Shown here piece by piece: positions 18,482 through 32,828 of a DNA stretch of 32,828 nt. A program made the position numbers and the translations under genes. The notes beneath the pieces are model-generated. The model worked only from the letters and a program-made list of their open reading frames with translations. It did not search any database and was not told the origin of the DNA. Position 1 is the stretch's first letter; every line of letters starts with the position of its first letter. This DNA is from a virus, in the UHGV virus genome UHGV-0144137. One strand, given 5' to 3'.

Positions 18482-20601
18482 TGGCCTATAGTCGTGAACA
18501 GTTGATGACGGCGTTAAGGAATGCTGATGCTGCCGGCGATACTGAGGGAGCACGTCGCATTGCTCAGATGCTGTCTTCTGATGATCAATCCACTCAAAAC
18601 CAATCGCAGCCAGAAGAACAATCTCTGGTAGGAAAAGCTACTGACTGGCTCACTGGTGGTCAAAGTGCAGGGCAAATTGCAGAACAGGCTGGTCGTGGTC
18701 TGGTAAACATACCATTTGACGTATTGCAGGGTGGCGCAAGTCTGATTAATGCAATCAGCCAGGGGCTTGGTGGCCCAAAGGTTTTGGATGATGTTTATCG
18801 CCCTGTCGATCGACCGACAGACCCTTACGCGCAAGCCGGTGAAACAATTGGTGGGTATCTCCTGCCAATTGGCACAGCGGCAAAAGCTGCTGGAGCGCCA
18901 GCAAAGCTCGCTGGAGATATCGGTTCCTCAGGAAACATGATTGCAGGTTCTCTTGCTGATGCTGCAAATCAGGAGGGCGACTTTGCACAAAATGCTGCCA
19001 TTAACGGTGGTATCAATATTGGTGCTCAGGGGATACTTTCTGGGGCTGGAAGGATCTTAACCTCTAAATCACCTCAAGTTCTTGGTGGCGGGGCAATAAA
19101 TTCCGCTGCTGATGTTTCGAAATTGGCAAAGTCTGGTACAGGAAGAGAGATTATTGCCAGACAGTCAGCTAATGTGTCAGACGAAATAGCAAAAGCAGCA
19201 GATACTGCTGGAATAGATATCAACGCATTAACTCCTGGCATGAGATCAGGTAGTCGTGGTCTTGCTCAGGCGGAGGGGATTCTGGCGTCAAAGCCCGGAA
19301 TTACACAGGATGCACACACCAAAGCATTCAGTGAAATAGAGTTGAAATTTAACTCAGCATTGGATGAGTTTGGGGCTGAAGCAGGAACTGCATCAGAAAA
19401 AAGTGCAGCCATAAAACAAAGGGTTTTGGCAAGTATTGATAAAATGAAAAATTCAGAAAAGGCCGCATGGGATAGCGTCCGCTCCACGATGCCTGACGCA
19501 AAGGCCAGAATGTCAAACCTGAACGCTACAATTCAGGGTGATATTTTGGCTGGCATGCCGCTAACTCCTGAGATGAAACAATTCGCATCTGCTTATGCTA
19601 AAACTGGTAAAAAAGGAATCACGTTTGATGCCATGAAGGCATGGCGAAGTAAACTTGCTGACGCAGAGCAGAAGTATATAAGGTCTGGTGAGGCAAATAC
19701 GGCAAGGCGCATGGCTGAGCTTCGTGATGCAGCAACGGAAGATATGCGCATAATGGCTCAAAATGGCGGTTTTCTTGATGACTGGCAAAAAGCTAATGAT
19801 CTGTCAAAGGCAAGATTTACAGCACAAGAACAGGCTGAAGCAGCGTTTGGTAGAGACCTTGCAACTGATCAGTTGGTAACTAATGGATCTAAGGCGTTAC
19901 AGGGTTCAGCAAAAAGTGGAACAGGTCAGTTCCATAAAATAATAAGCGCCCTACCTGAGTCGGAACGCGCGCCAGCAATTGCATCAATATTACAAGATGC
20001 AATGTCGCAAGGGGTACGCGGAGGTAAGTCTGAAGAGGCTGGAATTAAGCATATCGCGACTATTCTTACCCCACAAAACGTGAAGGCAATTAGTCGATAT
20101 TCTCCAGAACTTGGCAGGATTACAAGTTCATACGGAGAACTTGCACGAGCAGCAACAAAGCCACTTCGATATGTTGAACAGACAGGGCGATCTATGCCAG
20201 CCATTAGCACTCTTGAGAATGGCCTTCATCCAGTTTTAGAGAGCGCATTGTCTGGCGCTTTTAGAACTACTGGCACTATCGCAGGGTTCTCTGGAGGAGG
20301 CGTTATTGGAGCAATAGCGGGTGGCGCTGCAGGTGGGGCAATTGATGCAATGGCAAAAGGAGCGATAGCGAAATTATCCGCAACTAGAAGCGGTCGTTAC
20401 GCTATTGAAAAGGCTGTTCAAGAGGCAACAAAGGCAGTTAAGGTTGGGGCAAGTGATGGCGCATTAGCGGCGGCGGAACGCAGATTTATGGCAAATAAGG
20501 CCGCCGTAAAAGCAATACGCGAGGCACTAGGAAACGAAGAGTTCCAGCGTTTAGCAAGAGCTGGAATTGTGGCATCGCTAAGCGGAATGGCACAGGAGTA
20601 A
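18481..20601 (+). CDS. Ejection protein, P22 gp16-like (extended)
   Basis: 706 aa; ATG overlaps the gp20 stop; Ala/Gly-rich with Gly-rich hydrophobic C-terminal segment; longer than P22 gp16 (about 609 aa). Confidence 0.78.
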
Positions 20602-21006
20602 TTAGTCATCCATGGATGGATTGAGCTTATCTCGTGTTGATGTGGCAATTTTCCCAACATTTTTCAACCAAGATTTTAAGAAGGATATGTCGTCCTTAAT
20701 ATCATGAATATCCTCATTCTTTATACGATCAACCTTATCCTCTAAGCTCTCTATAGAACGCTCAATGCTAGACAGAGAGATTTTTAAGTCCCCTTGCTCA
20801 CGTTCCAGTGAGGATTTGAGAGCACAATATTCGTTTTCTAGAATTCCTATTTTTTTTGTTAGAGAGTGCATTCGATACTCATACACCAAACCAGAAACGA
20901 CTAATGCAGCCAACAGAAACCATTCAAGCACACCAACCTCCTTAGTTTTGAGCAGGATACCAGATGATAATGTGTAGTTGGAATAGCGCGGTTGTAATGC
21001 AAGCAT
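20602..21006 (-). CDS. hypothetical membrane-anchored coiled-coil protein (moron; candidate exclusion factor)
   Basis: 134 aa on the opposite strand to the late genes; one TM helix (VLEWFLLAALVVSGLVY) then a charged coiled coil; own promoter region shared with the divergent gene. Confidence 0.55.
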   Translation of the reverse strand: MLALQPRYSNYTLSSGILLKTKEVGVLEWFLLAALVVSGLVYEYRMHSLTKKIGILENEYCALKSSLEREQGDLKISLSSIERSIESLEDKVDRIKNEDIHDIKDDISFLKSWLKNVGKIATSTRDKLNPSMDD

Positions 21007-21087
21007 TTTGTTTTAGTTTTATGCTTGCTTGTATGTGTGTACAGTGTATATAATGCAAGCATACATCACAACAAAGGTGCTTGCATT

Positions 21088-22056
21088 ATGACTGAAAAGA
21101 ACAATGGCGAAGGGAAAGCTAAGGGCGGGATCGCTCGCGCAAAGTCGCTGACTAAAGAGCAGCGTTCTGAAATAGCAAAGAAAGCAGCTGCTGCAAGATG
21201 GAAAAGTAAGATTCTCAGGGCAACTCATCGTGGTAACTTTTTAGATGATTTTGGCATTGATGCTGAATGTTATGTACTGGATGACGAGTCGAAAACTGTC
21301 GTTGTTACGAAAACTGGATTATCTCAGTTGCTAGGGATTGGTGAACATGCCAGGGATTTAGATCAACTGCTTGGCGCTCAGTATATGAGCAAATACCGAG
21401 ATCTAGAATTGCAGCGAAAAATGGAAAATCCCTATAAATTTCAACTTACTTCGAAGTCTAAAACCGTTCATCAAGCGTTAGGTTATGACATTACAGCAAT
21501 TGTTGATATTGGTAGGGCACTAATAGAAGCTAAAGATAATGACGATCTACCACAATCACGGTTAAAGGCAGCCGCCGCAGCACAGAGACTTATTAATGCC
21601 TCCGCTAAGGCGGGAATTAAGGGGGTTGCGTATGCGCTTGCTGGTTATCGTCCAGAAGTTCAGGCTGTCATTGACGAGTTCAAAGCGTTTGTTCGTGAAG
21701 AGGCTCGTCAATATGAAAAGGAATTTCCAGATGAGCTATACGAGGAGTGGTATCGACTGTACGGCCTGAATAGGCCAGAGAAAGGACGGCCTATTCGTTT
21801 TGGGCAGCTAACCAACATGCAGATATACACCCCGCTAGCAAAGAGTAAAGGTAAAATCCTTGAACAGATTCGAGCCAGCCGAGACGAGAACGGAAAACAA
21901 TCTGATAAGTTGCATCTGTTCCTTTCTGAAATTGGTGTCAAGGCTTTGCGTCAGCATATCGGTAAGCTTCTTGGTGTCGCAGCGATGAGTGAGACAAGAG
22001 AAGAATACGAAAAAGGAATAGAAAAGGTTTTCGGAAGAATGAAACCAGAAATCTAA
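21088..22056 (+). CDS. hypothetical protein with basic N-terminus (moron)
   Basis: Track ORF 21025..22056 trimmed to ATG 21088 (MTEKNNGEGKAKGGIARAKSLTKEQRSEIAKKAAAARW...); preceded by TTGCTT-N18-TATAAT promoter-like sequence; followed by a bidirectional terminator. Confidence 0.6.
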   Translation: MTEKNNGEGKAKGGIARAKSLTKEQRSEIAKKAAAARWKSKILRATHRGNFLDDFGIDAECYVLDDESKTVVVTKTGLSQLLGIGEHARDLDQLLGAQYMSKYRDLELQRKMENPYKFQLTSKSKTVHQALGYDITAIVDIGRALIEAKDNDDLPQSRLKAAAAAQRLINASAKAGIKGVAYALAGYRPEVQAVIDEFKAFVREEARQYEKEFPDELYEEWYRLYGLNRPEKGRPIRFGQLTNMQIYTPLAKSKGKILEQIRASRDENGKQSDKLHLFLSEIGVKALRQHIGKLLGVAAMSETREEYEKGIEKVFGRMKPEI

Positions 22057-22061
22057 TTATG

Positions 22062-22087
22062 AAACCCACCTTCAGGTGGGTTTTTTG
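22062..22087. terminator. Bidirectional intrinsic terminator between convergent genes
   Basis: Stem AAACCCACC / GGTGGGTTT with loop TTCA, A-run on one side and TTTTTTGTTTT on the other; overlaps the mnt stop codon. Confidence 0.6.
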
Positions 22088-22323
22088 TTTTCTTGCATGT
22101 TCCTCAGCGTCTCAAGCAGCGCCTCTTTGAATTTGTCAGCTTCTTGCTGAGCAAATGACTCAACTGACTTTGGCGACCTATCTTCATCAATCGCGGCTTG
22201 CAAAATCATGACGATCTCGGAGTTAACAGAGCGACCATTTTTTGATGCTCTGACAGCAAGAGCCTCGCGTAAAGATTCAGGGATTCTTACCGTAGTTGGA
22301 GAAATTGACACACCCTTTGCCAT
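22072..22323 (-). CDS. mnt: Mnt-like ribbon-helix-helix reperessor (immI region)
   Basis: 83 aa (same length as P22 Mnt); RHH signature NGRSVNSE shared with Arc/Mnt; divergent from the arc-like/ant genes. Confidence 0.75.
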   Translation of the reverse strand: MAKGVSISPTTVRIPESLREALAVRASKNGRSVNSEIVMILQAAIDEDRSPKSVESFAQQEADKFKEALLETLRNMQENKKPT

Positions 22324-22438
22324 AGCACACCTTTGGTATTCAATTTGATATCAAAGTGTATGCAAAAAAATTTTGACTAGATATACTCACCTTGCTATCT
22401 TTTGTATTCGAAAAGAGTTGTTTTGTATGGAGGGTAAC
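22324..22438. promoter_or_regulatory. Divergent immI-like control region (mnt and arc/ant promoters and operators)
   Basis: Intergenic region between divergent RHH repressor genes; 12 bp perfect palindrome TTTGATATCAAA at 22344-22355; TTGACT at 22373-22378; GGAGGG Shine-Dalgarno before the arc-like ATG. Confidence 0.5.
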
Positions 22439-22591
22439 ATGGAGAAAGAAATAAGTAAGATTTTGGTAAGGATGCCGCAGTCGTTAAAGGATGCTATCGG
22501 TAGTAGGGCAAAGGAAGAGTGCAGGTCGTTTAACTCAGAGGTTATCAAGCGACTGATAGACAGCCTGAAGAGGGAGGGGGTAGTGGTATGA
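22439..22591 (+). CDS. arc: Arc-like ribbon-helix-helix repressor
   Basis: Track ORF 22373..22591 trimmed to ATG 22439 (MEKEISKILVRMPQSLKDAIGSRAKEECRSFNSEVIKRLIDSLKREG): 50 aa, RHH pattern with the RSxNSE motif as in P22 Arc. Confidence 0.7.
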   Translation: MEKEISKILVRMPQSLKDAIGSRAKEECRSFNSEVIKRLIDSLKREGVVV

Positions 22592-22779
22592 AAAACCGCA
22601 GATGTTGTTTTTGTGGGTGTAGTAAAGAAACGACTGGCAGGGGCTTTGTTGTGTCAAAAAATACCGAAGAAGCAATTTGTAACTCATGCGTTACAGATAT
22701 TGTTATTTTCATGCATACCGAGAAGGGGTTAGATGAAAAGCTAGAGAGTATTCCAGTTGAAGGCGCTGATAAAAGTTGA
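22588..22779 (+). CDS. small Cys-rich (zinc-ribbon-like) protein between arc-like and ant
   Basis: 63 aa; CCFCGC...CNSC cysteine pattern; ATGA overlap with the arc-like stop. Confidence 0.45.
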   Translation: MKNRRCCFCGCSKETTGRGFVVSKNTEEAICNSCVTDIVIFMHTEKGLDEKLESIPVEGADKS

Positions 22780-22842: not shown

Positions 22843-23766
22843 ATGACGAGTGTAGCAATTGCAGAACATACAATCAACGTTCCATTCCACGGAACAAATC
22901 TCTTTTTGGTCAGCATTAACAATGAACCTTACGTTCCTATGAAACCCGTTGTAGAAGGCATGGGTATGGTTTGGGCTGCTCAATTTGTTAAATTAAAACA
23001 GAGATTTGTCAAAGGTATTTCGGAAATCGAAATACCTTCTGCTGGCGGTAAACAGTTAATGATATGCCTTGCCTTTCGTAAGTTTGCGGCTTGGCTTTCA
23101 AGCATTCAGCCAAACAAAGTCCGTCCTGAAATCCGCGACAAGGTAATCCAGTATCAGGAAGAGTGTGACGATGTGCTATACGAGTACTGGACTAAAGGTC
23201 ATGTAGTTAACCCACGCAAAGCTAAAAAGGCGTTGCCGGGTAAAATCACCACTGAACAGCAGGAAGCCATTAAACAACTCGTCATGAGTCGCGGTCAGTC
23301 TCTGCCAAAGGAAAAACAGGCTAAGGCGATGATCACCATGTGGTCGTCACTGAAATCCCATTTTGGATGTTCATACAAAGAAATCAGTGAGGAGCAGTTT
23401 ACCGAAGCACTGTCACTTGCAGCTCGAGTTCCGCTTGAAGGTGAGTTCATTGGCAAACAAGAGAAGAAAACCAACGAGCTTTCTGCAAAAGAAGCAAACA
23501 GCCTTGTATGGCTATGGGATTATGCCAACCGCTCACAGGCATTATTCCGCGAATTGTATCCGGCGCTAAAACAAATTCAATCGAACTATTCCGGCAGATG
23601 TCATGACTGCGGTTATGAGTTCTCCCGTATTATCGATATGGCGAGAGATGTTTTAATCAACCATACACGAGATGTTGATATTAATGAGCCAGACGGACCA
23701 ACAAACCTTTCAGCATGGATAAGACTTAAGAACAAAGAATTACCTCCTTCAGTACATAACTACTGA
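22843..23766 (+). CDS. ant: Antirepressor Ant
   Basis: 307 aa; N-terminal VPFHGTNLFLVSINNEPYVPMKPVVEGMG and internal IPSAGGKQLMICL / VIQYQEECDDVLY closely resemble P22 Ant as I recall it. Confidence 0.88.
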   Translation: MTSVAIAEHTINVPFHGTNLFLVSINNEPYVPMKPVVEGMGMVWAAQFVKLKQRFVKGISEIEIPSAGGKQLMICLAFRKFAAWLSSIQPNKVRPEIRDKVIQYQEECDDVLYEYWTKGHVVNPRKAKKALPGKITTEQQEAIKQLVMSRGQSLPKEKQAKAMITMWSSLKSHFGCSYKEISEEQFTEALSLAARVPLEGEFIGKQEKKTNELSAKEANSLVWLWDYANRSQALFRELYPALKQIQSNYSGRCHDCGYEFSRIIDMARDVLINHTRDVDINEPDGPTNLSAWIRLKNKELPPSVHNY

Positions 23767-23866: not shown

Positions 23867-25945
23867 ATGACAGACATTACAGCCAATGTTGTAGTGAGTA
23901 TGCCTTCGCAACTCTTCACTATGGCTCGTTCTTTTAAAGCCGTAGCCAATGGCAAAATTTATATCGGTAAAATTGACACTGACCCGGTAAATCCTGAAAA
24001 CCAGATTCAGGTCTATGTTGAGAACGAAGATGGTTCTCACGTTCCTGTTTCTCAACCAATCATCATTAACGCTGCTGGTTACCCTGTATATAACGGACAG
24101 ATTGCCAAGTTCGTAACTGTGCAAGGCCATTCTATGGCGGTTTATGATGCGTATGGTGCGCAGCAGTTTTATTTTCCTAATGTGCTGAAGTATGACCCTG
24201 ATCAGTTTCAGAAGAGGTTGGCATCCTTTGATGATGGTGATGGGGATGAATTAGTGTCGGTGAAACAACCATTCCCCGGAGCAGCAAATCAAACTCAACA
24301 CCAAAAGAACCAACAAATCATTGATGTTCTTGACTTCGGTGCTCATCCATCGAATGCTGACAATAAAGTAGCTCTGCAATTTGCGCTAGATGCAATATAT
24401 AGCATTGGAGGAGGTACACTACAGTTTTCACTACCAGGCATATATACTTTGCTTTCTGAGTTGCAAATAAAATCAAATACTCACCTAAAGATGACTGATG
24501 GCGTAACCATTAAACGTAATTTTTCTAATGACGTCATGCTGAGAATAAGCCCTAATACTGGCACTAACATTAAAATAACAGGCGGAATACTAGATGGAGG
24601 AGGACAAGACCACCCTACAGATCCTTTTGACATCATTGCAGCCTCCTCACCAAGAAATCTTTCTATTGTTGGAGTAACATTTCTTGATGTAGTCGATTTT
24701 CATGCTGTAGATATTGCTGACGGGCAAGGGGTGATTATAAGAGACTGTAAGTTTCTTGGCTTCAAACCACTTTCCAACCGAAATTATTCAGAAGCGATCC
24801 AGTTAGATCCGGGGATTGAATCTCTTGGCGATTATTACCCAAACATCAATGTTCTTGTTGATAACTGTTATTTTGGTTCAAATCCACAAAATACCACCAC
24901 TGGGTTTGGGGCGTGGGGGGTGGGGGTTGGGAACCATGCTAATTCATATGGGAATCAGGACAAAAATATAAGGGTCATAAACTGCAGGTTCGATGGAATG
25001 CTCTTTGCCGGGGTAAGGGTTTTCAACTGGTATGATTGGGTGGTTAGCGGATGCTCTTTCTATAACAGTACCGCGCGAGGAGTTCATGTAACCCCATTCC
25101 CATCATCATCAAAACCACAGGGGGCAAGGAGGGGGCGCATTGTTGGCAATTATTTTGAAGGCGTTAGATCCCCGATTCTTCTGGCTGCACCTACATATCC
25201 ATATACAGATACATCAGATGCATTTCATGAAGATATCGTAATATCCAACAATTCCATGTTTATTACAGAGTCTCAATCATATGCAGTAGACGCAAGATGG
25301 GTTTCAGGACTAACTGTCACTGGAAACACAGCAAGAGGCGGAATCGGTTTTTTCAAAGGTGATTTTATTAACAAATCAATCATCTCTAATAATGAATACG
25401 ATTCAGGAACATCAAGTTCTTTATGGATTTCTGAAACTAATGCAGAAGAATTTATAGGGTCTGGTTTTTCGCATGATGTTGTAATTTCTAGCAACATCTT
25501 TAGAAATATTTCCCTGCATGGGATTCATATTAATGGTAAATATTCAAATGTTACTATTCAATCAAACATTATAGTTGGGGTTTCTACCGCAGATAATAAC
25601 CATAATGGCATACGAATTGACTCTGGTGCAGAAAATGTAATTGTTAGTTCAAATCAAATTCGTGATGGCGTTGCAAATAATAAACCATCAGTTGGTATAT
25701 TTGCTACATCAAGCTGTAAGAGCGTGTCATTTATAGGGAATGTTTCATTTGGAACATCAGCCACACAGAATAATCAAGCTACAGATAAAAGCTCACTTGT
25801 GATATTTGGGCAAGAAGGCAACCCAACATCTAGCGGAGTTGGAGCACCAGTTGGTTCTATTTACACTCGTTCTGATGGAGGTGGAAATACAGTACTTTAT
25901 ATAAAGGAAAGCAACACAAATGCTACAGGTTGGGTTAATAAGTAA
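23867..25945 (+). CDS. Tailspike protein: P22-type head-binding domain plus divergent beta-helix receptor-binding domain
   Basis: 692 aa; the first ~115 aa ([34 protein letters not shown]...NVLKYDPDQ) match the P22 gp9 head-binding domain; the remainder is a Gly/Asn/Ser-rich beta-helix-like sequence on AT-rich DNA. Confidence 0.9.
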
Positions 25946-30405: not shown

Positions 30406-31242
30406 CTAAAGACCATTTCTCGCTGATTTTATATCCAATAAGTTTATTTTATCTATCTTATCTTTGTGGATAACGATAGTAAGCTTTGCCGGAAATTTAA
30501 ACCTCATTTCACTTATTCTAAAAGTCCACAACATTATTTTAAGTAAATCCTCATCGCTAATATTTTTATGTTCCTTTATTCTAGTGATTCCAGATCCAAA
30601 GATAGGAACAGAGACACTTTTTTGAGCATATATACGATTAACTTTGTCCCAAAAATTTATTAAAAATGCTAGATAATCCGGCATTGTAAGAAAAGCTCTA
30701 TTTTTGTCGTCAAATTTTGAAAACGCAGTTAATAGATAATCATTATTAACGAAGATAGTTCCTAGCGAATATTTTTGTGTTTTACCCACTTTTCTTTTAT
30801 GGTTGACCTCAAGCAGTTCATCTTCTTCAAACTGATGATTTGAAATACGATGGTCCAAATCAGATACGGATCCCGCTAAATAGTTATCAATATATAATCC
30901 ATTAAGTGAATTATGAGAAATGATAACATCATCAACTTGCGTGTCAAAATATTCATTAAAAGCAATGACCTTGAATCCATCTTGTCTGAATAAATCGCCT
31001 GCTTTTACAGTAACAATGCTGCCCTCAACATCTAAATTAATTTCCGAAAGATTATTTGATTTAAACCATATGCCGAAATACAGTAAGAATAAAATAATTA
31101 AAAATATAATACCAAGTGTTAGTTTGTTTTCTGTTGGAATGTCTACAAAAATCAAAAAAAGTGAAAATATGGTACTAATAGTTGATGTGTAGTCTGAAAA
31201 TTTTTTAAGTATACGCTTATCGAAAAAATTAACTTTCGCCAT
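30406..31242 (-). CDS. Two-TM membrane protein with C-terminal Macro-like domain (ThsA type II-like effector candidate)
   Basis: 278 aa; two N-terminal hydrophobic helices (TISTIFSLFLIFV, LGIIFLIILFLLYFGIWF); downstream motifs DDVIISHNSLNG and SVPIFGSGITR resemble Macro-domain ADP-ribose-binding motifs (by eye); about 30% GC. Confidence 0.55.
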   Translation of the reverse strand: MAKVNFFDKRILKKFSDYTSTISTIFSLFLIFVDIPTENKLTLGIIFLIILFLLYFGIWFKSNNLSEINLDVEGSIVTVKAGDLFRQDGFKVIAFNEYFDTQVDDVIISHNSLNGLYIDNYLAGSVSDLDHRISNHQFEEDELLEVNHKRKVGKTQKYSLGTIFVNNDYLLTAFSKFDDKNRAFLTMPDYLAFLINFWDKVNRIYAQKSVSVPIFGSGITRIKEHKNISDEDLLKIMLWTFRISEMRFKFPAKLTIVIHKDKIDKINLLDIKSARNGL

Positions 31243-31378
31243 TTTTGTACCAACCTTGTTAATTATATGTAATTCAAGTGTGTTGATAGTAGTTTCTTAT
31301 AAATGATGTTTACACTATCTGATATATAAGGTATTTTCAACATGTTGATACTAATGTTGACTGCTTCATGGGGACTAT

Positions 31379-31888
31379 ATGAGTTATCGTAATAAGACAT
31401 ATGTGGCTTTTGCAAGTGAAGATATAAAGTTTTATCGTCTTATGGAGGCATGGAAAGCAAATGAAAAAATAGACTTTAACTTTTTTGATGCTCATGATCT
31501 CTTTATTTCAAGGGATACAAGTAAACCTGAAACCATAAAGCGAAACCTCCGCGAAAGGATGAAAAATGCTAAACAAGTAGTACTGTTGGGAAGCGGTAAT
31601 ACTAAGAGAAAAGGTAGCGATGGAGTATCGTTTCTTGCCCATGAAATAGATCTTATCGTAGAATTTAATCTTCCTGTTGTAATAGCTAATTTAGACGGAG
31701 ATAGAACAGTCGATAAGAACTTCATTCCTAAACCACTTTTAGATTCAGAACATTATACAGTATCTGTCTCTTTCCAACCTAAAATTATTAAATATGCATT
31801 AGATAATTACTGTGTTAACTATTACTCAAGTTCAAATAGTGGTAGTTATCTATACCCTACATCTGTTTATACTAAGCTAGGTCTGTAA
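31379..31888 (+). CDS. TIR-like (DUF1863 / ThsB-like) protein candidate
   Basis: 169 aa; N-terminus KTYVAFASEDIKFYRLMEAW and later VVLLGSGNT...AHEIDL fit the pattern of TIR-like ThsB proteins as I recall it; divergent from the TM-Macro gene. Confidence 0.5.
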   Translation: MSYRNKTYVAFASEDIKFYRLMEAWKANEKIDFNFFDAHDLFISRDTSKPETIKRNLRERMKNAKQVVLLGSGNTKRKGSDGVSFLAHEIDLIVEFNLPVVIANLDGDRTVDKNFIPKPLLDSEHYTVSVSFQPKIIKYALDNYCVNYYSSSNSGSYLYPTSVYTKLGL

Positions 31889-31914
31889 TATTTCAACGTA
31901 TACTAAACAATATG

Positions 31915-31941
31915 TGGAATGAGCACGGAACACTCATTCCA
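31915..31941. terminator. Hairpin between convergent genes
   Basis: 9 bp stem TGGAATGAG / CTCATTCCA with 9 nt loop, in an AT-rich intergenic region. Confidence 0.4.
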
Positions 31942-32019
31942 TAACAAACATACTATTTAGATGTGCTAATACAATTAATTTTATGCATCGAAGATATTAA
32001 GCACTTATGATTTATTGCT

Positions 32020-32828
32020 TTATCTTCTCCTGTATGCTATTTCAGCCAACTCTCTTGCTATTTCCTTAACGCTATATAAAGAAGTTTGCAGTGCCATTTT
32101 ATCCGCCAAATAATGGCTGTATTTAGATACCTCTTGAGCATTGATATTATGCCAGATTGGCAATATAATCTTATTATCATCATACACTGCACGATTAATT
32201 AAACTATCTAATTCGTATTGTGTCCATTTCTTGTTTAGAAAGTTATGAGAAAGTATGACTATGCCATAATTTGCTTTTCTTAGGCCTAAATCAATATTTC
32301 TCCTTAAGCTATCGCCGACTTCAAGTGTCTGTTCATCATACCAAATAATTACACCAAGTCTATTTAACTCGTCTACCAGTGGTCTGACAAAAGTATCTTT
32401 ATCCTCTTTTGCATGGGATATGAAAAAATCATAGTGCGTATTATTGTTATCTTGCATGACGTCATTCTGTATTTCATATGGTTGATGAAAAATTGCTTGT
32501 AATTTTGCCCAGTCTATTTCTGCTAAAGATTTATTATTGCGATAAAATAGTTTTTGGGAAGGGAAATCAATATTCGAAATGTAAATAATAAATATATTAT
32601 TTATTTTCTTTGCCTCAACCTCCTTCCACTCCCATCTATAATCGTGGATATAAGAAATTGATGCTTGAAAATAATCATTGGAAGTTAAATTACCTGCGCG
32701 AAATGTCGCATTACTAATATTAAACGCGAGATATGAGTTACCTTCTCCGTTGAAAATAATATTATATCCCTCTTTCAATAGATATGAACGAATCTCTTTG
32801 GTTTTTAGGTGCTGTTTCCATGCGAGGA
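32020..32828 (-). CDS. TIR-domain protein (N-terminus beyond window edge)
   Basis: Canonical TIR motifs YDFFISHAKEDKDTFVRPLVDEL...WYDE...IVILSHNFLNKKWTQYEL in the C-terminal half; the reading frame stays open upstream of the TTG at 32778 to the end of the window, so the gene is probably truncated by the window. Confidence 0.75.
   Translation of the reverse strand, partial: LAWKQHLKTKEIRSYLLKEGYNIIFNGEGNSYLAFNISNATFRAGNLTSNDYFQASISYIHDYRWEWKEVEAKKINNIFIIYISNIDFPSQKLFYRNNKSLAEIDWAKLQAIFHQPYEIQNDVMQDNNNTHYDFFISHAKEDKDTFVRPLVDELNRLGVIIWYDEQTLEVGDSLRRNIDLGLRKANYGIVILSHNFLNKKWTQYELDSLINRAVYDDNKIILPIWHNINAQEVSKYSHYLADKMALQTSLYSVKEIARELAEIAYRRR

What the first reader, a model, noticed from the sequence alone, without database searches (positions are those of the whole stretch)
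20602..22056. Divergent moron pair in the sieA/immI position, with 12 bp direct repeats around a strong promoter
Between the last ejection gene and mnt there are two genes not part of the conserved structural set: a minus-strand TM + coiled-coil protein and a plus-strand 322 aa protein with a basic N-terminus. Their shared control region carries two exact copies of TAATGCAAGCAT (20995-21006 and 21051-21062) and an inverted partial copy ATGCTTGC (21021-21028) around a TTGCTT-N18-TATAAT promoter. The position and membrane topology make the minus-strand gene a candidate superinfection-exclusion or abortive-infection factor, expressed from the prophage.
Basis: partly seen in the sequence, partly recalled or inferred. 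Interest (0 to 1): 0.5.

Follow-up and report, generated by a model that had tools for sequence, protein, structure and literature searches.

The report
Self-regulated P63C accessory gene cassette
The repeats are real and belong to a four-box control element that travels with a P63C-family gene of unknown function through phages, plasmids and insertion sequences of many bacterial phyla; it most likely lets the protein switch off its own gene.

Summary
The window is a P22-like prophage. Between ejection gene 16 and mnt lie two independent modules, not a functional pair.

(1) A minus-strand hkcB-family gene. It is probably 109 aa from a GTG start at 20931, not the 134-aa ORF. It has an N-terminal membrane anchor and a coiled coil.

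(2) A cassette of about 1.1 kb (about 20975-22095). It holds four copies of ATGCAAGCAT in alternating orientation, not the two and a half copies first reported. Box 2 contains the -35, box 3 abuts the -10, and box 4 abuts the start codon. A 322-aa P63C-family gene and a terminator follow.

The same array precedes homologues in Proteobacteria, Acidobacteriota, Myxococcota, Firmicutes, Actinobacteria and Deinococcus, although the spacers differ. Box variants change together with the protein's basic N-terminal motif (GGxARAxxLxxxxRxxIAxxAAxxRW), and relatives without the motif have no boxes. The best reading is autoregulation through that motif.

The effector function is unknown. No defence, structure or literature match was found. 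The cassette recurs in accessory-gene slots of prophages, on plasmids and as cargo of IS1-family elements. That placement suggests a role in conflicts between mobile elements, with BstA/aba as the closest analogy.

The parts
20602..20931 (-). hkcB-family gene, 109 aa from a GTG start. Residues 1-17 are hydrophobic (membrane anchor) and the rest is a charged coiled coil. It is a separate module from the cassette.
   Evidence: phrog_5962 aligns to aa 26-134 of the long ORF with E=2.8e-61. HK620 hkcB is 109 aa. 26 homologue clusters, nearly all 109 aa. Hydropathy. No BLASTP similarity to a SIEA-family protein.
20937..20943 (-). Shine-Dalgarno AAGGAGG of hkcB, 5 nt upstream of the GTG start.
   Evidence: Read from the sequence.
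20975..22095 (+). Approximate extent of the P63C accessory cassette: box array with promoter, gene and terminator.
   Evidence: Homology to HK620 ends at 20962, and short matches to other phages end at about 20975. Homology of the mnt side to other phages starts at about 22096-22104.
20997..21006 (+). Box 1, ATGCAAGCAT.
   Evidence: Conserved in 43 aligned homologue loci.
21021..21030 (-). Box 2, ATGCTTGCTT (inverted, 1 mismatch). It contains the -35 hexamer TTGCTT at 21025-21030.
21049..21054 (+). -10 hexamer TATAAT. Its last two bases are the first two of box 3. The predicted transcript start is near 21061.
   Evidence: 35 of 43 homologue loci have at least 4 of 6 matches to TATAAT at this position, and 36 of 43 have a 17-18-nt spacer. 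The start site is inferred.
21053..21062 (+). Box 3, ATGCAAGCAT.
21077..21086 (-). Box 4, GTGCTTGCAT (inverted, 1 mismatch). It lies between the AAAGG ribosome-binding site (21073-21077) and the ATG at 21088.
   Evidence: In most homologues box 4 runs directly into the start codon (TGCTTGCATG).
21088..22056 (+). P63C-family protein, 322 aa.
   Evidence: Pfam P63C at aa 199-286, 52.7 bits against a cut-off of 26.1. phrog_2384 full length, E=1.6e-104. 1685 homologues. 2883 clusters at 50% identity.
21112..21201 (+). N-terminal basic motif, aa 9-38 (GKAKGGIARAKSLTKEQRSEIAKKAAAARW). Proposed box-binding module.
   Evidence: It is the most conserved segment of the family. Its presence or absence, and its subtypes, track those of the boxes. 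Modelled as two helices with low confidence.
21682..21945 (+). P63C domain (helical), aa 199-286.
22061..22094 (.). Intrinsic terminator: a 10-bp stem followed by a T run. It overlaps the 3' end of the convergent mnt-like gene (22072-22323, minus strand).

Best explanation
The heart of the finding is a self-contained accessory ('moron') cassette of about 1.1 kb. It encodes a P63C-family protein that controls its own expression.

Anatomy. Four 10-bp boxes (consensus ATGCAAGCAT, invariant core GCAAGC) alternate in orientation. They are interleaved with a sigma-70 promoter. Box 2 supplies the -35, the -10 abuts box 3, the ribosome-binding site lies between boxes 3 and 4, and box 4 abuts the start codon.

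Mechanism (inferred). The protein's N-terminal basic two-helix motif of about 30 aa binds the boxes as double-stranded DNA. This covers the promoter and the start of the gene. The result would be low, steady, self-limiting expression that does not depend on the host phage's circuits. The cassette can therefore work wherever it lands.

Effector (unknown). The rest of the protein is an alpha/beta domain plus the helical P63C domain. It has no conserved catalytic-looking residues. Its function is unknown. Its locations suggest a binding or interference role in conflicts between mobile elements, such as exclusion or abortive infection. This is analogous to BstA with its aba DNA element.

The neighbouring minus-strand hkcB gene is an unrelated module in a hypervariable slot.
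For: Shown by sequence:
- All four boxes in the window lie within 90 bp.
- About 46 of 59 homologue loci from many phyla carry the same array, with start-to-start spacing of about 23/31/24 bp, while the spacers are unconserved. The GCAAGC core is invariant at every position in boxes 1-3 and nearly so in box 4 (37-43 of 43).
- Promoter geometry is conserved.

The boxes track the N-terminal motif:
- Paralogues of only 25-30% identity that keep the motif keep GCAAGC-type boxes. These are ST104 orf23, Burkholderia DC1, Gordonia Petra, Pseudomonas Lodos, and plasmids of Deinococcus, Acinetobacter and Roseomonas.
- Members without the motif have no boxes: Salmonella SI8, Streptococcus Javan484 and the Dokdonella locus L052.
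- Motif subtypes go with box variants: GCAAGTA in Acidobacteriota, YYAAGCAT in DC1/L042/L071, ACGTGCAT in 933W, and AGCAAGCA with GGIARRE.
- ST104 orf23 joins a window-type regulatory region and motif to a body that is only 29% identical.

Moron status and locations:
- The cassette is absent from HK620 at the same site and has its own terminator.
- It lies between gene 16 and mnt in Salmonella and E. coli P22-like prophages, and between Q and the holin gene in an Enterobacter prophage.
- It lies among tail genes beside a LexA-like repressor and an ORF6N protein.
- Paralogues lie directly after cI, in the slot PMC7067206 describes as a common moron site, or beside integrases.
- It also occurs on plasmids that have their own Rep proteins.
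Against: - No binding, repression or transcript data exist. Every functional step is inferred.
- The motif is modelled with low confidence (pLDDT 37-64) and matches no Pfam, PDB or NCBIfam entry.
- Some small proteins carrying the same motif are named 'RNA-binding protein' by a source. I could not trace that name to evidence.
- The boxes are mutually complementary, and the region folds strongly as RNA (z = -5.6), so an RNA-level role is possible as well.
- Many loci are related, so the motif/box co-variation rests on a limited number of independent events.
Confidence: 0.6

Rival explanations
1. The boxes act as RNA (or as a cruciform), not as protein-binding DNA. Transcripts entering from outside, such as late-operon read-through, would contain boxes 1-3. 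These would pair with box 4 and bury the ribosome-binding site and start codon. The native mRNA starts after box 3 and stays translatable. This resembles fold-back inhibition as I recall it for IS10.
For: - The segment 20990-21095 folds to -43.9 kcal/mol, z = -5.6, with box 1 paired to box 4 and box 2 to box 3.
- Weak miRNA-like Rfam hits reflect the same hairpin.
- The predicted transcript start lies at the 3' edge of box 3.
- Some enterobacterial cassettes carry an upstream insulating terminator.
Against: - The box sequence is invariant across phyla instead of co-varying.
- Of 95 variant cells, 55 break pairing, 23 are G-U and only 17 stay Watson-Crick.
- Variants appear in all four boxes at once.
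- The boxes vanish when the N-terminal motif is absent.
- In distant members the half-sites abut as short palindromes, typical of dimer operators.
- This mechanism could coexist with DNA binding.
Confidence: 0.15
2. The protein is an accessory or regulatory factor of an IS1-family transposable element, or a replication or recombination protein. The boxes would then be its transposition, replication or recombination sites, and the phage copy would be a stranded remnant.
For: - 29 of 56 genome loci have a divergent IS1-family DDE transposase directly upstream of the array.
- Terminal inverted repeats starting GGTAGTG or GGTGGTG bound units of 2.5-2.8 kb.
- Four virtually identical copies (>=99.9%) occur in one Kaistiaceae genome.
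- The gene is present on very small plasmids.
Against: - The window has no transposase remnant and no terminal repeat. The same holds for the enterobacterial loci.
- The gene is intact and conserved at four or more different prophage positions, and in paralogues inside lysogeny modules.
- Plasmids that carry it have their own Rep proteins.
- The boxes coincide with the -35, the -10 and the start codon.
Confidence: 0.12
3. The two divergent genes form one unit under a shared repeat-controlled region, and the membrane/coiled-coil protein is the active superinfection-exclusion or abortive-infection factor.
For: - The minus gene sits where sieA sits in P22-like phages.
- It has an N-terminal membrane anchor.
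- The slot holds at least four unrelated minus-strand genes in relatives, as expected for a defence hot-spot.
- Box 1 lies upstream of hkcB.
Against: - The two modules occur independently.
- The family is tiny and uncharacterised.
- It has no similarity to SIEA and no PADLOC hit of note.
- No leftward promoter was recognised.
Confidence: 0.2
4. The boxes are sites for a host transcription factor or an alternative sigma factor.
For: The boxes overlap promoter elements. TTGCA resembles a sigma-54 -12 element.
Against: - The same boxes occur from Firmicutes and Actinobacteria to Deinococcus and Proteobacteria.
- There is no GG -24 element at a fixed distance.
- The boxes co-vary with the encoded protein, not with the host.
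Confidence: 0.03

Closest known systems
BstA with its aba element (prophage BTP1; PMC8585504)
   Same: A single cytoplasmic prophage accessory protein of about 300 aa with an N-terminal DNA-binding-type region and a C-terminal domain. It is found in moron slots; paralogues of the protein here sit directly after cI, as bstA does. A short DNA element with repeats overlaps the start of the gene and is cognate to its own protein variant.
   Different: No sequence, HMM or fold link was found. BstA's N-domain is KilA-N-like, and no such match was seen here. aba has CCCGCC direct repeats and acts as self-immunity. Here the boxes coincide with the -35, the -10 and the start codon, which points first to autoregulation. 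No abortive-infection phenotype is known.
P22 immI region and sieA slot (mnt-arc-ant; SieA)
   Same: Same genomic position, between gene 16 and mnt. The window keeps mnt-like, arc and ant genes. Salmonella relatives carry SieA plus the P63C cassette together.
   Different: The minus-strand gene is hkcB-like and unrelated to SIEA. The P63C cassette is absent from P22-type HK620.
HK620 hkcB (phrog_5962)
   Same: The minus gene is 98% identical at the DNA level over the shared stretch and has the same length and position.
   Different: In HK620 hkcB faces hkcC. Here hkcC is replaced by the P63C cassette.
IS1-family insertion sequences with passenger genes (single-ORF type; classification from my own knowledge of ISfinder groups)
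   Same: In about half of the genome loci the same array and gene are cargo of an element with a DDE_Tnp_IS1 transposase and GGnnnTG-type ends.
   Different: The window copy has no transposase and no ends. In phages it behaves as a stand-alone moron.
Classical autoregulated repressor/operator modules (Arc/Mnt operators, restriction-modification C-proteins)
   Same: Inverted repeated sites overlap the regulator's own -35 and -10.
   Different: The proposed DNA-binding part is a 30-aa motif that matches no known DNA-binding family. It is attached to a body of about 280 aa with unknown function. The operator sequence is conserved across phyla.

Membership tests
Pfam P63C (PF10546) / phrog_2384 | P63C domain scoring above the gathering threshold | tested here: met
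   52.7 bits against a cut-off of 26.1, aa 199-286.
Pfam P63C (PF10546) / phrog_2384 | Full-length colinearity with the family | tested here: met
   phrog_2384 positions 4-328 of 338, E=1.6e-104. Alignment A1.
Moron (accessory cassette in a phage genome) | Present or absent between otherwise colinear phages | tested here: met
   HK620 has gene 16 and hkcB but then hkcC, not the cassette. Phage 611R6 has the cassette.
Moron (accessory cassette in a phage genome) | Own promoter and own terminator | tested here: met
   -35/-10 geometry is conserved in 35-36 of 43 homologue loci. Terminator at 22061-22084. This is sequence-level evidence only.
Moron (accessory cassette in a phage genome) | Expressed from the repressed prophage | not testable with these tools
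   Needs RNA-seq or 5' RACE in a lysogen.
Autoregulated repressor/operator module | Repeated sites overlapping the gene's own core promoter | tested here: met
Autoregulated repressor/operator module | Sites co-occur and co-vary with a segment of the encoded protein | tested here: met
   The number of independent lineages is limited.
Autoregulated repressor/operator module | Direct binding and repression | not testable with these tools
   Needs gel-shift or footprinting and reporter assays.
BstA/aba defence system | Sequence or HMM membership; KilA-N-like N-domain | tested here: not met
BstA/aba defence system | Cognate repeat-bearing DNA element overlapping the gene start | tested here: met
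   Boxes 3 and 4 flank the 5' UTR and abut the ATG. Variants are cognate. This is an analogy only.
BstA/aba defence system | Abortive infection and self-immunity phenotype | not testable with these tools
   Needs phage challenge experiments.
SieA (for the minus-strand gene) | Sequence similarity to SIEA-family proteins | tested here: not met
   BLASTP against the SIEA-annotated protein of L079 gave no alignment at E<=100. The local Pfam copy may lack the SIEA model, so one search is not decisive.
SieA (for the minus-strand gene) | Minus-strand membrane protein gene between gene 16 and mnt | tested here: met
SieA (for the minus-strand gene) | Exclusion phenotype | not testable with these tools
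   Needs an experiment.
hkcB family (phrog_5962) | Full-length match and the same position next to gene 16 | tested here: met
IS1-family transposable element | DDE transposase and GGnnnTG terminal inverted repeats flanking the unit | tested here: not met
   No tblastn hit and no end motif in 20500-22400. Both features are met in 29 of 56 other loci.
Known structured RNA (Rfam) | Match at the gathering score | tested here: not met
   Only sub-threshold chance hits.

The most novel reading that the evidence does not exclude
The P63C cassette is a previously unrecognised, very widespread single-gene system for conflicts between mobile elements, such as defence or exclusion. It is carried by phages, plasmids and IS1-family elements. 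Its N-terminal motif of about 30 aa is a new sequence-specific DNA-binding module that reads GCAAGCA. The box array serves both as operator and as a DNA 'self' mark, as aba does for BstA.
Probability: 0.25. Interest if true: 0.75.

Novelty: new variant of a known kind. Interest (0 to 1): 0.58.

Why it matters
- P63C is an uncharacterised family: about 2,900 clusters at 50% identity, always named only 'P63C domain-containing protein', and I found no functional literature.
- A cross-phylum, hard-wired box array paired with an N-terminal motif gives the family its first testable mechanism.
- If confirmed, the pair would be a compact, portable repressor/operator with natural specificity variants (GCAAGCA, GCAAGTA, ACGTGCAT).
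- The cassette's positions (after cI, beside integrases, in the sieA slot, between Q and the lysis genes, on plasmids, as IS cargo) mark it as a good candidate for phage-defence or interference screens.
- The analysis corrects gene starts for hkcB here and for ST104 orf23.
- It shows that IS1-family elements can spread this cargo.

Tried and rejected
- PADLOC and NCBIfam scans of both proteins gave nothing meaningful.
- A PDB sequence search with the family profile and with the motif alone gave nothing.
- The AFDB Foldseek library was unavailable.
- Scanning all 30 family members against Pfam at a lax threshold gave no KilA-N, Bro-N or antirepressor-type hit.
- Rfam gave only chance hits.
- The idea that P63C is a plasmid replication initiator was dropped, because plasmids carrying it have RepM or RepA.
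- The host-factor idea was dropped because of the cross-phylum conservation.
- Literature searches for P63C, PF10546 and Mx8 p63 found no functional study. The 2002 paper that, to my recollection, defined the domain is not held.
- The source name 'RNA-binding protein' on small motif-bearing proteins could not be traced to any model or paper.
Full report
**Context.** The window is a P22-like (Lederbergvirus) prophage. The 706-aa ORF at 18481-20601 is the gene-16-type ejection protein; it is 98% identical in DNA to HK620 over the shared stretch. It is followed by the region in question and then by an mnt-like ribbon-helix-helix gene (22072-22323, minus), arc (22433-22591), ant (22843-23766) and a tailspike (23867-25945). 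The closest phage record, vB_EcoP-611R6, has the same arrangement at 96.6% identity.

**Checking the observation.** Three points need amending.

- There is a fourth, inverted copy (GTGCTTGCAT, 21077-21086) just before the ATG at 21088. Allowing one mismatch, ATGCAAGCAT occurs four times in the whole window, all between 20997 and 21086, with starts 24, 32 and 24 bp apart. In 2000 Markov-1 random sequences, none had more than two hits within 100 bp.
- The minus-strand ORF is probably 109 aa, not 134 aa. The phrog_5962 profile and HK620 hkcB cover only its last 109 residues. A GTG at 20931 lies 5 nt behind AAGGAGG. Nearly all of the 26 homologue clusters are 109 aa long. Box 1 is therefore intergenic.
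- The promoter has a perfect -10 but only 3 of 6 matches in the -35, with an 18-nt spacer. The consensus scan did not list it.

**Two modules, not a pair.** Homology to HK620 runs through hkcB and stops at 20962. HK620 then has hkcC instead of the plus-strand gene. epsilon34, SEN22 and CUS-3 also match the end of gene 16 and part of the minus-strand gene but lack the cassette. On the other side, homology of the mnt region to other phages resumes at about 22096-22104. The segment from about 20975 to 22095 therefore behaves as an inserted unit holding the boxes, a promoter, a 322-aa gene and an intrinsic terminator at 22061-22084.

In Salmonella P22-like prophages the same unit follows a SIEA-family gene, other unrelated minus-strand genes, or nothing. 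The hkcB-like protein shows no BLASTP similarity to any of the three I compared. It has a hydrophobic N-terminus (residues 1-17) and a charged coiled-coil remainder. Its family is small and uncharacterised.

**The key result.** I fetched 71 loci encoding homologues from one genome per species. The four-box array recurs upstream of about 46 of the 59 loci with a near-full-length match. These loci come from Gamma-, Beta-, Alpha- and Deltaproteobacteria, Myxococcota, Acidobacteriota, Oscillospiraceae, Heliobacteriaceae and Verrucomicrobiota. The order is always TGCAAGCA, TGCTTGCA, TGCAAGCA, TGCTTGCA, at about -87, -63, -31 and -7 from the start codon.

In an alignment of 43 such regions, the core is invariant at every position in boxes 1-3 and nearly so in box 4 (37-43 of 43). 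The spacers are not conserved. The hexamer inside box 2 (TTGCAT, TTGCTT or TTGCAA) lies 17-18 nt from a TAnnnT hexamer that overlaps box 3. That spacing holds in 36 of 43 loci, and 35 of 43 have at least 4 of 6 matches to TATAAT. A Shine-Dalgarno sequence sits between boxes 3 and 4, and box 4 usually runs into the ATG (TGCTTGCATG). The array, promoter and gene therefore move together as one unit.

**Who reads the boxes?** The only component that always accompanies them is the encoded protein, and specifically its N-terminal motif.

- Paralogues only 25-30% identical in the body but retaining the motif still carry GCAAGC-type boxes at the gene start. These are Salmonella phage ST104 orf23, Burkholderia DC1 gp5, Gordonia Petra gp34, Pseudomonas Lodos, and plasmids of Deinococcus ficus, Acinetobacter larvae and Roseomonas mucosa. 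In the Deinococcus and Roseomonas plasmids the half-sites form tight palindromes, TGCTTGC-N0-4-GCAAGCA.
- Relatives that lack the motif have no boxes. Salmonella SI8 and Streptococcus Javan484 sit directly behind a cI-type repressor gene. Dokdonella L052 also lacks both.
- Motif subtypes go with box variants. ...REIARAAIQARW goes with GCAAGTATA boxes (three Acidobacteriota). KIGGARRA...ARAGAxARW goes with YYAAGCAT boxes (DC1, L042, L071). GGIARRE goes with AGCAAGCA in all the boxes that vary. The 933W paralogue has lost the final RW and carries ACGTGCAT boxes.
- ST104 orf23 looks like a chimera. Its regulatory region and motif are of the enterobacterial window type, but its body is only 29% identical. 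Its annotated start lies inside box 3 and is probably 12 codons too early.

Taken together, this supports binding of the motif to the boxes as double-stranded DNA, and hence autoregulation. The binding itself is inferred, not shown.

**The RNA alternative.** The four boxes are mutually complementary, and 20990-21095 folds as RNA to -43.9 kcal/mol (z = -5.6). However, changes in the boxes are mostly not compensatory: of 95 variant cells, 55 break pairing, 23 are G-U and 17 remain Watson-Crick. The sequence itself is conserved rather than merely the pairing. A native transcript starting about 7 nt after the -10 would contain only box 4. A secondary role remains possible. Read-through transcripts from the late operon, which to my knowledge pass through this region in P22, would contain all four boxes and could sequester the start codon. 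This would resemble fold-back inhibition as I recall it for IS10.

**Where the cassette lives.**

- In Enterobacterales it is a stand-alone insert in prophages.
  - It lies between gene 16 and mnt in Salmonella and E. coli P22-like prophages, including a copy only 53% identical.
  - It lies between the Q antiterminator gene and the holin gene in an Enterobacter prophage.
  - It lies among tail genes, next to a LexA-like repressor and an ORF6N protein, in a siphovirus-type prophage.
- Distant paralogues sit directly after cI (ST104, SI8, Javan484), beside integrases (DC1, Petra, Lodos), or in the nin region next to roi (933W). The cI-N interval is described as a common site of accessory loci such as rexAB and bstA (PMC7067206).
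- The cassette covers at least 80% of the query in 46 of 5426 complete E. coli genomes.
- It occurs on plasmids that have their own Rep proteins.
- Outside Enterobacterales, 29 of 56 loci have a divergent IS1-family DDE transposase immediately upstream of the array, and often a small convergent ORF whose C-terminus carries the same motif.
  - Units of 2.5-2.8 kb are bounded by inverted repeats starting GGTAGTG or GGTGGTG.
  - One Kaistiaceae genome has four virtually identical copies (>=99.9%).
  - The window has no transposase remnant and no such ends.

**Interpretation.** The cassette is best described as a portable, self-regulated accessory gene of mobile elements. Autoregulation would explain how it functions in so many unrelated contexts. 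What the body of the protein does is unknown. Its distribution is typical of genes involved in conflicts between mobile elements. The closest functional analogy is BstA, a prophage abortive-infection protein with a DNA-binding-type N-terminus. Its cognate aba DNA element, which bears repeats, overlaps the start of its own gene (PMC8585504). I found no sequence or fold link to BstA, so this is an analogy and not membership. I put about 0.8 on the boxes being protein-binding sites coupled to the motif. I put about 0.65 on negative autoregulation and about 0.3 on a defence or exclusion role.

**Verdict.** The 'divergent pair' reading is only partly right. The interesting object is the plus-strand cassette and its cross-phylum control element. 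I could not find this element described in the literature available to me.

Noticed in passing
window 30406-32778: A Thoeris-like defence locus near the right end of the window. It comprises a ThsA Macro-domain protein (30406-31242, minus; E=3e-64), a ThsB-type TIR protein (31379-31888, plus) and a second TIR-domain protein (32020-32778, minus).
   Followed up: partly
window 22588-22779: A 63-aa cysteine-rich ORF (CCFCGC...CNSC) lies between arc and ant. A small ORF of similar size (48-73 aa) occupies the same place in 611R6, Salmonella and E. coli relatives. It has no Pfam match. By eye it resembles a small zinc-ribbon.
   Followed up: partly
L039 4972-7490 (also L040, L041, L054; L019 777-3534; L023 4599-7288; L067 4978-7654): IS1-family elements of 2.5-2.8 kb carry the box array, a P63C gene and a small ORF ending in the same KGGxARA...RW motif as cargo. 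One Kaistiaceae genome holds four virtually identical copies (>=99.9%).
   Followed up: partly
L089 3417-4496 (phage ST104 orf23): The annotated start codon lies inside box 3. The conserved start is 36 nt downstream. The gene looks like a chimera of a window-type regulatory region and N-motif joined to a divergent P63C body. It sits directly after cI, where bstA sits in BTP1.
   Followed up: partly
L088 3917-4966 (phage 933W ST933Wp35): This P63C paralogue lies in the nin region next to roi. It has a diverged N-motif and a different repeat set around its start: ACGTGCAT twice plus an inverted TGCACGT.
   Followed up: partly
L003, L005, L006, L007 and L089, about 15-25 nt upstream of box 1: The same terminator-like hairpin, GGTCGCAGAAATGCGGCC followed by a T run, precedes the cassette in several enterobacterial species and in ST104. 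It looks like a built-in insulator against read-through. It is absent from the window copy.
   Followed up: no
proteins P0353, P0378, P0328, P0314, P0307: Many proteins of about 75-79 aa consist of a short N-terminal part plus the same motif at the C-terminus. Some sources name them 'RNA-binding protein', and one (with two tandem motifs) 'general stress protein YciG'. No NCBIfam model or paper was found behind these names. By eye the motif resembles the KGG stress-protein repeat.
   Followed up: partly
L079-L085, the gene between gene 16 and the P63C cassette: This slot holds at least four unrelated minus-strand genes in different P22-like prophages (SIEA family 164 aa, 161 aa, 131 aa, hkcB 109 aa), or none. 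It appears to be a hypervariable cargo position.
   Followed up: partly
window 22072-22323 and 18481-20601: The mnt-like protein hits only the Arc/RHH models here, whereas relatives are pre-annotated with Repressor_Mnt. The gene-16 protein gives no hit in the local Pfam copy, although relatives are pre-annotated PF26808. The local library therefore probably lacks some recent models, including SIEA.
   Followed up: partly
L085 6047-6583: In an E. coli P22-like prophage with a 53%-identical P63C cassette, a ClpP-like protease gene lies between the cassette and mnt.
   Followed up: no
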